This document shows positions 186 through 4,802 of a stretch of DNA of 64,000 nucleotides, piece by piece. The notes beneath the pieces are model-generated. The model worked only from the letters and a program-made list of their open reading frames with translations, did no database searches and was not told the origin of the DNA. This DNA is from an uncultured Alphaproteobacteria bacterium (GTDB taxonomy: Bacteria; Pseudomonadota; Alphaproteobacteria; RF32; CAG-239). The DNA lies in the NCBI GenBank assembly GCA_944392235.1, contig CALXVZ010000003.1, positions 46,788 to 110,787 on the forward strand, in the 5' to 3' direction. Position 1 is the first letter of the stretch, and the number at the start of each line of letters is the position of its first letter. The translations under genes were made by a program, and so were the position numbers.

Positions 186-725
186 TTAAGCTGGAGATAT
201 AATCATAAACATTTGCTTTCCTTCTAACTTTGGAGCAGCATCTACTTTACATACTCCTTCAAGATCTTCCAACAACCTGTTTAAGACTTCTTTTCCCATA
301 TCATTAGCGCTCATTTCTCTTCCTTTATAGCGCATTGTAAATTTTACTTTATCCCCTTGCTCTAAGAATTTTTTTGCTTGTTTTACTTTTACCTCATAGT
401 CATGAGTATCTATCATAGGACGTAATTTTAATTCTTTAATATTTACGATTTTTTGATTCTTTTTCGCTTCATTTTTCTTTTTCTGCATTTCATATTTATA
501 TTTTCCATAGTCTAATACTTTGCAGACAGGAGGATTTACTTGTGGGGATATTTCTATTAAATCGAGCCCTACTTCTTGAGCTATCTTTAGTGCTTCTGTT
601 ATTGAAACTATGCCTAAATTTTCCCCATTATAATTTATTAAGCGAACTTCTTTTGATTTTATCTCTCTATTTATGCGCGGTCCGTCACTTTCACGTACTG
701 GTGCATTTGTATTTTCTGTAGCTAT
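186..725 (-). CDS. infC: Translation initiation factor IF-3; probable non-canonical ATA start at 725 (ORF track starts at TTG 737)
   Basis: PRINREI..EVRLI, GLDLIEISP..PPVCKVLDYGKYKYE and KELKLRP..DTHDY motifs; GGAGG SD lies 5 nt before the in-frame ATA. Confidence 0.96.
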   Translation of the reverse strand: MATENTNAPVRESDGPRINREIKSKEVRLINYNGENLGIVSITEALKIAQEVGLDLIEISPQVNPPVCKVLDYGKYKYEMQKKKNEAKKNQKIVNIKELKLRPMIDTHDYEVKVKQAKKFLEQGDKVKFTMRYKGREMSANDMGKEVLNRLLEDLEGVCKVDAAPKLEGKQMFMIISPA

Positions 726-815
726 GACTGCCTCCAATAAAAAATTAATGTTACTCTCTTATATATAAGGAAATTTATTGTATTTCGCAACAAAAATCTT
801 TATTTAATTTTTAAC

Positions 816-1676
816 CTATAAAGCTTTTGTCATTCTTTGTTTTATTTGTAGCTGTTTGTAATTTTGAACCATCATCCTTTGTGCTTGTCTATAGTATTGT
901 GTGTGTGCAAATAGAACTTCACCATTCTCCCTATTAAACTCTACACCGACAAAACCTTTTGATATCATGTAATCTATTAATTCTAATCTTTCAAATGGTA
1001 TTGATACTCTTGGCTTAAAGCATGATAAGACACTATCCTTTTCTATAGGCTTATGTAACAATGAAATTTTTCCACCATCTGAGGGATCTATAGCTGTTGA
1101 AAATAAATTAAATCGACATGCAAAATACGGTCCCATATTCCAGCGATTTTTTCTATCTACTATAGATGTGCAATCTGTGCACCCTAATTTTTGGGCTTGT
1201 TCTATACGATAATTTATCATAATGGTATTTAGTGCATTTCCCCTATAATTCGGAAGAACAGAATCACCCCCCATTGATGCTATTTTGTTTTTCCCATTAT
1301 TTCTTTCTGTTTCAAAAAAATTATATTCGGAGTTGGGCAATTCTTCTTGCAATTCCTCTTTTGTTTCACAAACCCTAATGTAAGACATTCCTATTAAATG
1401 GTTTCCAACGAATACTCCTATATAGTTTATTTGTGTATTATTGAAAACCTCGTGGAAATACTCCTGACTATGCTTGTGAATAAAGCATTCCTCCCCATTT
1501 TTTAGATGCTTATATATGTTTTCAGAAAGTTTACCCATCTGCTCCGCATCATCGGGAGTTAATGGGCGGATATGATATTTTATTGGGTTTCTCTGTTTCT
1601 CGTTATTAACCTTGTAAAGATACCCTTGCCATACATCTTTGCCATTTATTACATATTTTTTTATTTCTGAAACCAT
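816..1676 (-). CDS. GNAT-family N-acetyltransferase with N- and C-terminal extensions
   Basis: IRPLTPDDAEQM beta1/alpha1 start; acetyl-CoA-binding motif A DSVLPNYRGNALNTIMI; later V..KNRWN motif. Confidence 0.7.
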   Translation of the reverse strand: MVSEIKKYVINGKDVWQGYLYKVNNEKQRNPIKYHIRPLTPDDAEQMGKLSENIYKHLKNGEECFIHKHSQEYFHEVFNNTQINYIGVFVGNHLIGMSYIRVCETKEELQEELPNSEYNFFETERNNGKNKIASMGGDSVLPNYRGNALNTIMINYRIEQAQKLGCTDCTSIVDRKNRWNMGPYFACRFNLFSTAIDPSDGGKISLLHKPIEKDSVLSCFKPRVSIPFERLELIDYMISKGFVGVEFNRENGEVLFAHTQYYRQAQRMMVQNYKQLQIKQRMTKAL

Positions 1677-1689
1677 TTTTCTTTTCCAT

Positions 1690-1717
1690 AAAAAATGAGG
1701 GGAGTTACCCCGCCCTC
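1690..1717 (-). terminator. Attenuator-type intrinsic terminator in the GNAT 5' leader
   Basis: Minus strand GAGGG(C)GGG-GTAA-CTCCCCTC followed by ATTTTTT, ending about 13 nt before the GNAT ATG. Confidence 0.75.
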
Positions 1718-1741
1718 TAATTTTCTTCTAATCAATTTAAA

Positions 1742-1822
1742 TCAACAGAATCTATTAATCGGCGGGATGGCTATATCCTGACGTTTCATTTTCATCTGTT
1801 TTATCATTATTGAATAGATCAT
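1742..1822 (-). CDS. Putative 26-aa leader peptide MIYSIMIKQMKMKRQDIAIPPINRFC (not in ORF track)
   Basis: ATG at 1822, TGA at 1744-1742, AGGA SD 7 nt upstream; its Ile-Pro-Pro codons are complementary to the terminator 5' arm. Confidence 0.65.
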   Translation of the reverse strand: MIYSIMIKQMKMKRQDIAIPPINRFC

Positions 1823-1851
1823 TTTTATTTCCTAATAAACATTTTGGGGGT

Positions 1852-1881
1852 ATTCTAAATTGTATATTGGTATTTTGTCAA
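1852..1881 (-). promoter_or_regulatory. Sigma70-type promoter for the leader/GNAT transcript
   Basis: Minus strand TTGACA (1881-1876), 18-nt spacer, TAGAAT (1857-1852). Confidence 0.6.

Positions 1882-1902: not shown

Positions 1903-4802
<2,900 letters not shown>

What the first reader, a model, noticed from the sequence alone, without database searches (positions are those of the whole stretch)
816..1881. Unannotated leader-peptide attenuator (..KMKRQDIAIPP..) controlling a GNAT acetyltransferase
Seen on the minus strand, in order: promoter TTGACA-18-TAGAAT; AGGA SD; a 26-codon ORF (1822-1742, MIYSIMIKQMKMKRQDIAIPPINRFC); a GNRA-capped terminator with U-tract (1717-1690); then the GNAT start. 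The Ile-Pro-Pro codons (ATCCCGCC, 1768-1761) pair with GGCGGGGT in the terminator 5' arm, and the helix extends through TTAAT/ATTAG. Antiterminator and terminator are therefore mutually exclusive, and these are conspicuous GC-rich patches in an AT-rich spacer. Established: this is the architecture of ribosome-mediated attenuators. Inference: the signal could be antibiotic-induced stalling at the +X+ motif K-M-K, which would free the antiterminator and induce a drug-modifying acetyltransferase. Alternatively it could be EF-P- or Pro-tRNA-dependent pausing at IPP. I do not recognise this peptide as a described leader.
Basis: partly seen in the sequence, partly recalled or inferred. Interest (0 to 1): 0.78.

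Follow-up and report, generated by a model that had tools for sequence, protein, structure and literature searches.

The report
Lysine-codon leader attenuator before GNAT gene
A tiny translated gene and competing RNA hairpins form a conserved on/off switch before an uncharacterised acetyltransferase gene of uncultured gut bacteria, and it most likely reports lysine supply rather than an antibiotic.

Summary
On the minus strand lie a near-consensus promoter, a Shine-Dalgarno (SD) site, a 26-codon ORF, an intrinsic terminator and a 286-aa GNAT gene.

The element is not chance. A covariance model finds it upstream of 69 of 73 GNAT homologue loci from several genera of gut Alphaproteobacteria. The antiterminator covaries: 9 of 9 pairs change on both sides.

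The Pro-Pro codons are not conserved as amino acids (17 of 62 leaders), so that box is RNA and the EF-P idea falls. The conserved peptide core is K-Q-[LM]-K-[SI]-K-(K)-R. All 62 leaders have 3-4 Lys in 8 codons, never swapped for Arg.

New context:
- A paralogous GNAT in the same genome has an Arg-rich leader ending CGA-CGA-stop.
- In other genera the GNAT is co-transcribed with an AstE/AspA-type deacylase.
- The three genes co-occur.
- dapA, lysA, argB and argH were not found.

Best reading: a trp-type attenuator that senses Lys-tRNA and controls a basic-amino-acid acylation/deacylation module of unknown chemistry. Drug-induced +X+ arrest is not excluded.

There are no expression data and no structure model. 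The scan found this family earlier on another genome (e1-5091309).

The parts
1876..1881 (-). -35 hexamer TTGACA
   Evidence: 11 of 12 promoter match; TTGACA is conserved in the own + 28 same-genus sequences (the L013 row was cut 3 bases short by me).
1852..1857 (-). -10 hexamer TAGAAT, 18-nt spacer
   Evidence: aligned TAnAAT in relatives.
1830..1833 (-). Shine-Dalgarno AGGA of the leader ORF, 7 nt before the ATG
   Evidence: an SD-like purine tract stands 4-16 nt before an in-frame ATG in 56 of 62 leaders.
1742..1822 (-). Leader ORF, 26 codons plus stop (MIYSIMIKQMKMKRQDIAIPPINRFC)
   Evidence: a homologous ORF is present in 62 distinct leaders.
1781..1801 (-). Conserved peptide core K8-Q-M-K-M-K-R14: three Lys codons and one CGU Arg codon; proposed stall site
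   Evidence: 3-4 Lys in these 8 codons in 62 of 62 leaders; the codon before R/M is Lys in 62 of 62; the Arg codon is CGN in 59 of 59.
1774..1784 (-). Region 1 (ACGUCAGGAUA), able to pair with region 2 as an anti-antiterminator; weak in this genome (-5.5 kcal/mol)
   Evidence: family-wide 74.2% of cells paired, but covariation is no higher than in shuffles.
1754..1768 (-). Region 2 (AUCCCGCC GA UUAAU), the 5' strand of the antiterminator; overlaps codons I19-P20-P21
   Evidence: -15.0 kcal/mol with region 3; covariation.
1707..1721 (-). Region 3 (AUUAG AG GGCGGGGU), the 3' strand of the antiterminator; it is also the 5' arm of the terminator
1690..1717 (-). Intrinsic terminator: 8-bp stem with a bulged C and a GUAA loop (1717-1697), then A and U6 (1695-1690)
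   Evidence: -12.8 kcal/mol; family-wide 86.5% of cells paired and 8 of 10 pairs changed on both sides.
816..1676 (-). Regulated gene: 286-aa GNAT-fold protein with a C-terminal extension (GNAT1)
   Evidence: PF00583 at 19.1 bits against a cut-off of 20.7 for the window's own protein; 35 of 36 family members match at E <= 0.1, best 1.6e-7.

Best explanation
This is a classical ribosome-mediated (trp-type) transcription attenuator. Transcription starts at the strong promoter. The 26-codon leader is translated from its own SD and ATG.

If the ribosome runs through to the stop codon, or if the leader is not translated, region 2 (the CCCGCC box) is covered or held by region 1. The GC-rich hairpin plus U-tract then forms at 1717-1690 and ends transcription before the GNAT gene.

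If the ribosome stalls on the conserved Lys-rich core K-Q-M-K-M-K-R (codons 8-14), it covers region 1 but leaves region 2 free. Region 2 pairs with the 5' arm of the terminator as soon as that arm is made, the terminator cannot form, and RNA polymerase reads into the GNAT gene.

The most likely cause of the stall is a shortage of charged tRNA-Lys. On this reading the element is a lysine-hunger switch in a bacterium that seems unable to make lysine or arginine. It turns on one of two paralogous GNAT enzymes. The other paralogue has an arginine-codon leader. Both work with an AstE/AspA-type N-acyl-amino-acid deacylase.

Shown: the parts, their conservation, covariation of the terminator and antiterminator, and the gene associations. 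Inferred: translation of the leader, the stall site, lysine as the signal, and the chemistry of the enzymes.

Odds: the attenuator itself about 0.9. The confidence below is for the whole statement, including lysine sensing.
For: Anatomy in the window.

Conservation
- The window's own genome and all 28 same-genus genomes with a strong GNAT orthologue (of 35 relatives searched) carry promoter, ORF, box and terminator.
- Homologues at 32-52% identity from other genera carry it too.
- Model R1 finds it upstream of the gene in 69 of 73 loci and only once in the own genome. The second hit there is the greA terminator.
- The five same-genus genomes without an R1 hit are the ones without the GNAT.

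Structure
- Terminator: 86.5% of cells paired, 8 of 10 pairs with changes on both sides, 0 of 500 shuffles reach the covariation score.
- Antiterminator on the MAFFT alignment: 76.5% paired, 9 of 10 pairs changed on both sides, 0 of 500 shuffles, against 43-54% paired when slid.
- Antiterminator on the CM alignment, which was fitted to the other two helices: 77.8% paired, 9 of 9 pairs changed on both sides, 0 of 500.
- Whole arms are swapped between clades, for example CCCGCC/GGCGGG, CCCACC/GGUGGG, UCUCCUGC/GCGGGAGA and UUCGGCUUG/CAAGCCGAA.
- The 2:3 duplex beats shuffled windows in 57 of 62 leaders.
- In transcripts cut after the terminator's 5' arm, that arm pairs with box 2 in 55 of 62 when a ribosome is placed with Lys in the P site and Arg in the A site. 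The figure is 20 of 62 without a ribosome and 30 of 62 with one at the stop codon.

Translation
- An SD-like tract is present in 56 of 62 leaders, and the K-R pair sits at codon 12-16.
- There is synonymous variation at the core codons: AAA/AAG, CAA/CAG, CGU/C/A/G.

Lysine
- There are 3-4 Lys in the 8 core codons in 62 of 62 leaders, against 8.2% Lys genome-wide.
- No Arg codon appears at any Lys position.
- The invariant Arg codon is always CGN (59 of 59), although AGR makes up 46% of Arg codons in the genome. Its C and G pair in helix 1:2, and the R-to-M clade changes the partner too, so the Arg is explained by the RNA.
- The paralogue GNAT2 (22% identity over 246 aa, E 1e-9) has its own promoter, leader and terminator. 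Its leader is Arg-rich and ends [LM]-R-R-stop with CGA CGA in 24 of 24 leaders found among 29 loci.
- argB, dapA, lysA and argH were not found in G000 or in four 100%-complete relatives, while the controls rang in 13-14 of 14 genomes.
Against: - There are no expression, 3'-end or stalling data, and no RNA run is listed.
- Helix 1:2 is only weakly supported. Its covariation score equals that of shuffles (0.118 against 0.118), and its energy beats shuffles in only 22 of 62 leaders.
- In the window itself, 1:2 is weak (-5.5 kcal/mol) and the antiterminator forms in the model even without a ribosome (12 bp). This copy may therefore be leaky or poised differently.
- The Lys codons are interspersed rather than in a run. 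Gln at position 2 is nearly invariant, and codon choice is skewed: AAG in 31 of 49 Lys codons at position -3, against 19% genome-wide. Lysine sensing does not explain this. An outer helix AACAG/CUGUU might, but it is only 56% paired.
- A +X+ motif is present in 58 of 62 cores, so macrolide-type arrest fits the same residues.
- The regulated genes are not lysine-biosynthetic. Why a lysine auxotroph would induce an acyltransferase when starved of lysine is not explained.
- The GNAT's substrate is unknown.
Confidence: 0.55

Rival explanations
1. Ligand- or drug-dependent nascent-peptide arrest. A tunnel-binding compound such as a macrolide or ketolide stalls the ribosome at the +X+ motif (K-M-K here, K-I-K or K-S-K elsewhere), freeing the antiterminator and inducing the GNAT.
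For: - [KR]x[KR] lies in the core of 58 of 62 leaders.
- The GNAT2 leader contains R-L-R, the ErmDL-type motif. +X+ arrest by ketolides and macrolides is established (PMC8298421 and PMC12583479, abstracts seen in the listing).
- The stall site sits at codon 12-16 of a short ORF, as in drug-sensing leaders.
- The stall geometry is the same as for lysine sensing.
- The gene is patchy within the genus, present in 29 of 36 genomes.
Against: - K and R are interchangeable in +X+ arrest, yet the Lys positions never become Arg, and the GNAT2 leader's last two codons are always Arg.
- 4 of 62 cores lack +X+.
- The GNAT does not match the aminoglycoside acetyltransferase (AAC) resistance models searched, apart from single stray hits at E 0.08-0.09.
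- It is co-transcribed with a deacylase in 33 of 44 distant loci. The two would undo each other on a single drug substrate.
- The locus is syntenic and single-copy, not on a mobile element.
Confidence: 0.15
2. Unspecific translation-stress sensor. Any slowing of elongation over the first 14 codons (general amino-acid starvation, sub-inhibitory ribosome inhibitors, low ribosome supply) frees region 2 and induces the GNAT, much as the whiB7 uORF attenuator does.
For: - The geometry makes any ribosome held upstream of box 2 an inducer. With the first core Lys in the A site, 12 of 62 leaders switch even in full-length MFE folds.
- A precedent is the whiB7 leader uORF, which responds to translation stress and alanine starvation (PMC10274678, abstract seen in the listing).
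Against: It does not explain the strict conservation of 3-4 Lys codons at fixed positions over GNAT divergence down to about 32% identity. It also does not explain the parallel Arg-only leader on the paralogue.
Confidence: 0.15
3. EF-P- or Pro-tRNA-dependent pausing at Ile-Pro-Pro. A ribosome paused on PP would sit on box 2.
For: The window and 16 other leaders encode PP on the CCCGCC box.
Against: PP is absent from 45 of 62 leaders. The same box is read as PS or, in another frame, SR. The box covaries with the terminator arm as RNA, including a synonymous CCG-to-CCA change matched by GCGGG-to-GUGGG and CCCGC-to-CCCAC in L018.
Confidence: 0.02
4. The small ORF is not translated, and the leader is a riboswitch or a protein- or tRNA-binding RNA that toggles the same antiterminator and terminator.
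For: Parts of the 'peptide' conservation have RNA explanations: the CG of the Arg codon pairs in helix 1:2, and AACAG may pair with CUGUU. There is no direct evidence of translation.
Against: - ATG and an SD-like tract are kept in 56 of 62 leaders, and the frame is kept open through the core in all 62.
- There are synonymous changes at Lys, Gln and Arg codons.
- No Rfam family matches, including T-box and the lysine riboswitch.
- The element is short (about 110 nt) and consists of three simple helices.
Confidence: 0.05

Closest known systems
Leader-peptide attenuators of amino-acid operons (E. coli trpL, hisL, pheL, thrL, leuL, ilvL; Sinorhizobium meliloti trpL). Named from my own knowledge; for S. 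meliloti trpL, abstracts of PMC6614838 and PMC7298713 seen in the listing.
   Same: A promoter-proximal short ORF with SD. Regulatory codons lie on or before region 1. There are mutually exclusive 1:2, 2:3 and 3:4 helices and an intrinsic terminator before the structural gene. A stall gives read-through.
   Different: The regulatory codons are Lys, and no Lys attenuator was found in my searches. They are interspersed in a conserved 7-8-residue motif rather than forming a run. The regulated gene is a GNAT (plus a deacylase in other genera) in an organism where lysine-biosynthesis marker genes were not found, not a biosynthetic operon. No Rfam leader family matches.
Macrolide-sensing leader ErmDL (MRLR) and the +X+ arrest motif (PMC8298421 and PMC12583479, abstracts seen in the listing)
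   Same: A short leader with a [KR]x[KR] motif about 7-14 codons in. A stalled ribosome remodels the downstream RNA.
   Different: Erm leaders mostly release a sequestered ribosome-binding site (recalled), and the regulated gene is an rRNA methylase. Here the switch is a terminator. K and R are not interchangeable, and the regulated gene has no link to resistance.
whiB7 5' leader uORF attenuator of mycobacteria (PMC10274678, abstract seen in the listing)
   Same: A uORF-dependent terminator/antiterminator that responds to ribosome slowing; its regulon includes the GNAT Eis (recalled).
   Different: It controls a transcription factor and responds to alanine starvation and many drugs. The sequence is unrelated and the phylum is different.
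CphZ/AotO beta-Asp-Arg/Lys dipeptide hydrolases and other AstE/AspA-family deacylases (PMC9974463, passages read)
   Same: The deacylase linked to this GNAT has the same catalytic domain: PF24827, E 1e-19 to 4e-20. Characterised members of the family release Arg/Lys, Glu, Asp or diaminobutyrate from N-acyl forms.
   Different: The best NCBIfam and PDB matches are weak and spread over AstE, aspartoacylase, DoeB and N-acetylornithine deacetylase. No subfamily can be assigned. CphZ genes are not reported next to a GNAT in the passages I read.

Membership tests
Ribosome-mediated leader-peptide transcription attenuators (trp type) | A short ORF with translation-initiation signals between the promoter and the structural gene | tested here: met
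   ORF 1822-1742 with AGGA 7 nt upstream; an SD-like tract in 56 of 62 leaders.
Ribosome-mediated leader-peptide transcription attenuators (trp type) | An intrinsic terminator (GC-rich hairpin plus U-tract) upstream of the regulated gene | tested here: met
   found by my simple finder in 70 of 75 upstream regions; 86.5% of cells paired, 8 of 10 pairs changed on both sides.
Ribosome-mediated leader-peptide transcription attenuators (trp type) | An antiterminator that shares a strand with the terminator and lies within reach of the leader ribosome | tested here: met
   9 of 9 or 9 of 10 pairs with compensatory change, 0 of 500 shuffles; box 2 lies inside the ORF.
Ribosome-mediated leader-peptide transcription attenuators (trp type) | An anti-antiterminator (1:2) overlapped by the regulatory codons | tested here: inconclusive
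   74.2% of cells paired but no covariation above shuffles. The energy beats shuffles in 22 of 62. Clear in some clades, such as AAGUCGAAAC/GUUUCGGCUU, and weak in the window (-5.5 kcal/mol).
Ribosome-mediated leader-peptide transcription attenuators (trp type) | Regulatory codons for the amino acid whose biosynthesis the operon serves | tested here: not met
   Lys codons are enriched (3-4 of 8 in 62 of 62 leaders). But the gene is a GNAT, and dapA and lysA were not found in 5 genomes. It works like this family but is not a biosynthetic-operon attenuator.
Ribosome-mediated leader-peptide transcription attenuators (trp type) | Termination and read-through shown to depend on leader translation | not testable with these tools
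   No RNA run is listed; the organism is uncultured.
Drug-inducible arrest leaders (ErmDL/ErmCL/cat/cmlA type) | An arrest motif in the leader (+X+ for macrolides) | tested here: met
   K-M-K in the window; [KR]x[KR] in 58 of 62 cores.
Drug-inducible arrest leaders (ErmDL/ErmCL/cat/cmlA type) | The regulated gene is a resistance determinant against the inducer | tested here: not met
   No resistance family matches at meaningful E. The gene is paired with a deacylase and lies in a syntenic chromosomal locus.
Drug-inducible arrest leaders (ErmDL/ErmCL/cat/cmlA type) | The stall depends on the drug | not testable with these tools
   Needs toeprinting or reporter assays.
Rfam leader and riboswitch families (Trp/His/Leu/Thr/Phe leaders, T-box, lysine riboswitch) | A match to the covariance model at the gathering score | tested here: not met
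   No match overlaps 1690-1881 at E <= 10. There is none at the leaders of 5 related loci at E <= 0.1, apart from a sub-threshold L20_leader hit of 27.3 bits against a gathering score of 58.7.
GNAT acetyltransferases (Pfam PF00583) | A match to the family profile above the gathering score | tested here: inconclusive
   The window protein scores 19.1 bits against a cut-off of 20.7. 35 of 36 family members match at E <= 0.1, best 1.6e-7. A profile search of the PDB finds only PaiA-like GNATs at E about 1e-3. No structure model could be made.
EF-P-dependent polyproline stalling leaders | A conserved PP(P/x) motif at the regulatory site | tested here: not met
   PP is present in 17 of 62 leaders; the frame of the box differs between clades.

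The most novel reading that the evidence does not exclude
The Lys-codon leader here and the Arg-codon leader on the paralogous GNAT are two arms of one undescribed starvation response in gut Alphaproteobacteria that appear auxotrophic for lysine and arginine. Each leader reads the charging of one tRNA. Each switches on a GNAT specific for 'its' basic amino acid, and both GNATs work with a shared AstE/AspA-type deacylase. The module would either free Lys/Arg from N-acyl or isopeptide conjugates, as CphZ frees them from beta-Asp-Arg/Lys. Or it would acetylate competing D-forms or analogues that block charging, while the deacylase rescues any L-Lys/L-Arg acetylated by mistake. Either way, amino-acid-specific leader-peptide attenuators would be doing a job outside biosynthesis, and a new GNAT-plus-deacylase pathway would become testable.
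Probability: 0.3. Interest if true: 0.75.

Novelty: new variant of a known kind. Interest (0 to 1): 0.6.

Why it matters
Leader-peptide attenuators are textbook devices for amino-acid biosynthetic operons. I found no lysine version in print or in Rfam 15.

Here a Lys-type and an Arg-type leader sit on two paralogous enzymes of unknown function, in abundant but uncultured gut bacteria in which marker genes for making either amino acid were not found. That gives a direct handle on three questions: what these bacteria do when a host-supplied amino acid runs out, what a widespread uncharacterised GNAT/AstE-type gene pair does, and whether a conserved basic motif acts through tRNA charging or through the nascent chain.

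The element is compact, about 190 nt from promoter to terminator, and could be tested in E. coli or in a cell-free system.

Tried and rejected
- Structure prediction of the GNAT. There is therefore no model, no fold search and no active-site comparison.
- ESM Atlas. The window protein is not held. The stored homologue P0059 gave only 'hypothetical protein, PF00583' clusters.
- Sequencing runs. Nothing can be said about expression.
- Classical biosynthesis. I considered that GNAT1/GNAT2 plus the deacylase replace ArgA/ArgE or DapD/DapE, or an N-acetyl-aminoadipate route. I rejected this because argB, argH, dapA and lysA were not found in G000 (77% complete) or in four 100%-complete relatives.
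- A regulon. R1 finds no second real copy in the own genome; the hit at E 0.01 is the greA terminator.
- Repeat or mobile element. The leader DNA is single-copy in G000.
- Outer helix AACAG/CUGUU as an explanation for the conserved Lys-Gln codons. It is only 56.3% paired, against 53.0% in shuffles, with weak covariation. Left open.
- Full-length MFE folding with a modelled ribosome. The terminator wins in most cases (42 of 62 even with the stall), because equilibrium folding of the complete hairpin ignores the order of synthesis. The truncated-transcript test replaced it.
- Subfamily of the deacylase. PDB and NCBIfam hits are weak and mixed, so there is no assignment to CphZ, AstE, DoeB or aspartoacylase.
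- Rows dropped before the 62-leader counts. I started from 75 distinct upstream regions.
  - My hairpin finder missed or mis-set five (L013, L014, L066, L089, L094).
  - My motif pattern missed six (L074, L078, L080, L083, L087, L102).
  - Two were duplicates of kept rows (L045, L051).
  - The covariance model later recovered seven of these eleven (L013, L014, L066, L083, L087, L089, L102), but not L074, L078, L080 or L094.
  - L074, L078 and L080 carry a variant leader (SIKR...IKKK) with a different terminator.
Full report
**1. What is in the window**

All features lie on the minus strand.
- Promoter: TTGACA (1881-1876), 18-nt spacer, TAGAAT (1857-1852). This is 11 of 12 matches, the best of the 6 promoter-like sites in 600-2300.
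- SD: AGGA (1833-1830), 7 nt before the ATG.
- Leader ORF: 26 codons, 1822-1742, MIYSIMIKQMKMKRQDIAIPPINRFC.
- Terminator: a hairpin GAGGG(C)GGG-GUAA-CUCCCCUC (1717-1697), then A and U6 (1695-1690).
- Regulated gene: a 286-codon ORF at 1676-816.

The hairpin is in both the MFE and the centroid fold. The simple terminator scan did not list it, probably because of the bulged C. The 181-nt leader as a whole folds no better than shuffles (z -0.64).

AUCCCGCC (1768-1761) is complementary to GGCGGGGU (1714-1707). UUAAU (1758-1754) is complementary to AUUAG (1721-1717). Together the duplex is -15.0 kcal/mol. Whether it means anything has to come from comparison.

Neighbours: ligA is divergent upstream (1924-3996, +). 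infC follows downstream behind a promoter-like TTGCGA-17-TATATA of its own.

**2. Conservation**

The protein has strong orthologues (59-75% identity) in 28 of 35 same-genus genomes. All 28, and the window, carry the same set of parts: TTGACA, an SD, a small ORF, a CCCGCC-type box and a GCGGG...CCCGC+U terminator.

A scan of species-representative genomes gave 72 loci from uncultured Alphaproteobacteria; many record titles name gut or rectum samples. Homologues down to 32-52% identity, from other genera and with different upstream neighbours, have the element too.

From 75 distinct upstream regions I compiled 62 distinct leaders (the dropped rows are listed under Tried and rejected). A covariance model built on them (R1) gave these results:
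- It finds the element just upstream of the gene in 69 of 73 loci, including seven that were not in the seed.
- It hits once in the own genome. The next hit is the greA terminator.
- It hits 39 of 151 genomes of the order under strict filters.
- In the genus, the five genomes without a hit (G002, G007, G008, G014, G026) are ones that lack the GNAT.

The leader DNA is single-copy in the own genome. No Rfam family matches.

**3. RNA structure**

| Helix | Alignment | Cells paired | Pairs changed on both sides | Covariation vs shuffles |
|---|---|---|---|---|
| Terminator (3:4) | A3, 62 rows | 86.5% | 8 of 10 | 0.271 vs 0.152, 0 of 500 reach it |
| Antiterminator (2:3) | A3, 62 rows | 76.5% (43-54% when slid) | 9 of 10 | 0.283 vs 0.182, 0 of 500 |
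| Antiterminator (2:3) | A4, 70 rows | 77.8% | 9 of 9 | 0 of 500 |
| Anti-antiterminator (1:2) | A3, 62 rows | 74.2% | 3 of 8 | 0.118 vs 0.118 |

Alignment A4 was fitted by the model to the other two helices, so it is not biased towards 2:3.

Whole arms differ between clades while staying complementary:
- CCCGCC / GGCGGG
- UCUCCUGC / GCGGGAGA
- UUCGGCUUG / CAAGCCGAA
- CCCACC together with GGUGGG and CCCAC in L018, where the leader change is a synonymous CCG-to-CCA

The native 2:3 duplex beats shuffled windows in 57 of 62 leaders.

Helix 1:2 joins the Lys-Arg-x-Glu codons (AAACGUnAGGAA) to UUCCCGnCGUU. Its energy beats shuffles in only 22 of 62 leaders. It is obvious in some clades, such as AAGUCGAAAC/GUUUCGGCUU, and weak in the window (-5.5 kcal/mol).

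I also modelled a ribosome on transcripts cut after the terminator's 5' arm. That arm pairs with box 2:
- in 55 of 62 leaders with Lys in the P site and Arg in the A site
- in 20 of 62 with no ribosome
- in 30 of 62 with the ribosome at the stop codon

For the window's own sequence the arm pairs in all three cases (12, 12 and 6 bp). This copy may be leaky.

**4. What is conserved as peptide and what as RNA**

The same box is read as PS or, in another frame, SR. It is therefore an RNA element, and the EF-P idea falls as a family mechanism.

The peptide core is [IT]-K-Q-[MLF]-K-[ISQ]-K-(K)-R.
- All 62 leaders have 3-4 Lys in the eight codons ending at R (or at M in one clade). Lys is 8.2% of codons genome-wide.
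- The codon before R/M is Lys in 62 of 62 leaders.
- No Arg codon ever replaces a Lys.
- Synonymous variants occur: AAA/AAG, CAA/CAG, CGU/C/A/G.
- The Arg codon is CGN in 59 of 59 cases, although AGR makes up 46% of Arg codons in this 33%-GC genome. Its C and G pair in helix 1:2, and the clade with Met in place of Arg changes the partner as well (CG to UA). The invariant Arg therefore has an RNA explanation, which leaves Lys as the candidate regulatory residue.
- An SD-like tract stands before an in-frame ATG in 56 of 62 leaders, and K-R is codon 12-16.

**5. The regulated gene and its partners**

The protein is GNAT-like but otherwise unassigned.
- PF00583 scores 19.1 bits for the window's own protein, below the cut-off of 20.7. 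35 of 36 family members match at E <= 0.1.
- A profile search of the PDB finds only PaiA-like GNATs at E about 1e-3.
- There are weak AblB (beta-lysine acetyltransferase) hits in 6 of 36 members, and stray AAC hits in 1 of 36 each.
- The 100 database homologues are unnamed, 'hypothetical' or 'GNAT family'.

Three pieces of context are new.

(a) An operon partner. In 33 of 44 distant loci the GNAT stop overlaps the start of a gene of about 280 aa, typically by 7 nt. That gene has the AstE/AspA catalytic domain (PF24827, E 1e-19). It gives weak hits to aspartoacylase, DoeB, AstE and a Shewanella-type N-acetylornithine deacetylase. The same family includes CphZ/AotO, which releases Arg or Lys from beta-Asp-Arg/Lys (PMC9974463, passages read).

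(b) The partner's place in this genus. Here the deacylase lies elsewhere (G000:C2, locus L142 1486-2337, minus strand). It converges on a paralogue, GNAT2 (L142 707-1480; 22% identity to GNAT1 over 246 aa, E 1e-9). The deacylase is next to 13 of the 14 close GNAT2 orthologues. Over the 36 genomes of the genus, including G000, GNAT1 and the deacylase occur as follows:
- both present in 28
- both absent in 6
- GNAT1 alone in G006, which is 65% complete
- the deacylase alone in G035

(c) A second leader. GNAT2 has its own promoter, leader and terminator, and its leader is arginine-rich. In G000 it reads MIGLKNTSLRLRRLSLRR*. In 24 of 29 loci the leader ends [LM]-R-R-stop with invariant CGA CGA and has 3-7 Arg codons.

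Finally, argB, dapA, lysA and argH were not found in G000 (77% complete) or in four 100%-complete relatives. The same searches rang in 13-14 of 14 control genomes.

**6. Reading**

The element is a trp-type attenuator; I put that at about 0.9. For the signal I favour tRNA-Lys charging, at about 0.55 for the full statement. The reasons are:
- The Lys positions are strictly Lys.
- The sister element is strictly Arg. In +X+ arrest, K and R are interchangeable (PMC8298421, abstract).
- The organisms seem to depend on outside lysine and arginine.
- The partner enzyme family acts on N-acylated amino acids, several of them basic.

Against this reading:
- The Lys codons are interspersed rather than in a run.
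- Gln is conserved and codon choice is skewed.
- Helix 1:2 is weak.
- +X+ is present in 58 of 62 cores.
- I cannot say why a lysine-starved auxotroph needs an acyltransferase.

Drug- or ligand-dependent arrest (0.15) and unspecific translation stress (0.15) remain open. EF-P pausing (0.02) and an untranslated riboswitch (0.05) are unlikely.

**7. Novelty**

My searches found no lysine-codon attenuator and no leader for this GNAT (listings and abstracts only), and Rfam has none. This scan had already noted the same family on another genome (e1-5091309) and read it the same way. I re-derived the attenuator independently.

Earlier notes on Arg-rich leaders before GNAT or deacylase genes in other phyla (e1-3088166, e1-2058334) suggest a wider theme; I did not check them.

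**8. Limits**

There are no RNA data. The organism is uncultured. Counts across relatives are not independent events. Supplements of the cited papers were not opened.

Noticed in passing
G000 contig C2, locus L142 about 490-690 (+), upstream of L142:707-1480: A second, different leader-peptide attenuator stands before a paralogous GNAT. It has a TTGACA promoter, the ORF MIGLKNTSLRLRRLSLRR* and the terminator AGATTTGAG-CTCA-CTCAAATCT followed by T7. In 24 of 29 related loci the leader is Arg-rich and ends [LM]-R-R-stop with invariant CGA CGA. GCGAC at the end of the ORF is complementary to GUCGC just before the terminator.
   Followed up: partly
L142:1486-2337 (-) and L142:2334-2693 (-): An AstE/AspA-family deacylase (PF24827, E 4e-20) is preceded by an overlapping 119-aa ORF with no Pfam or NCBIfam family. 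In other genera the deacylase is instead translationally coupled to the leader-controlled GNAT.
   Followed up: partly
Whole genomes G000, G018, G024, G013, G008: argB, argH, dapA and lysA were not found, while the controls were positive in 13-14 of 14 genomes. This suggests Lys and Arg auxotrophy and raises the question of where the diamino acid of the cell wall comes from.
   Followed up: partly
window 723-740 (-): The infC (IF3) frame is listed from a TTG at 737-735 that overlaps a GGAGG (735-731). An AUA codon at 725-723, 5 nt after the GGAGG, looks like the real, non-canonical start. I recall that IF3 genes autoregulate through an AUU-class start codon.
   Followed up: no
window 1846-1851 (-): A C-rich stretch (ACCCCC) directly follows the -10 hexamer. 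It is conserved as ACCCCC, ACCCGC or ACCAGC in most same-genus leaders but not in other genera. It could be a discriminator-like element or a further partner for the G-rich terminator arm.
   Followed up: no
L074, L078, L080 (upstream of the GNAT homologue): A variant leader (..SIKREYKVKANSASYRV / ..SIKRLVIKKKAS..) with a GCCGA..UUCGG terminator and a long-range AUAAAACG/CGUUUUUAU complement. Model R1 does not detect it. It is still Lys-rich.
   Followed up: no
window 816-1676 (-), protein residues 62-69: The GNAT family has an invariant Cys64, Ile66, His67 and His69 (EECFIHKH) and a conserved C-terminal domain shared with the paralogue. This is unusual for a GNAT and may be a metal or substrate site.
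   Followed up: no
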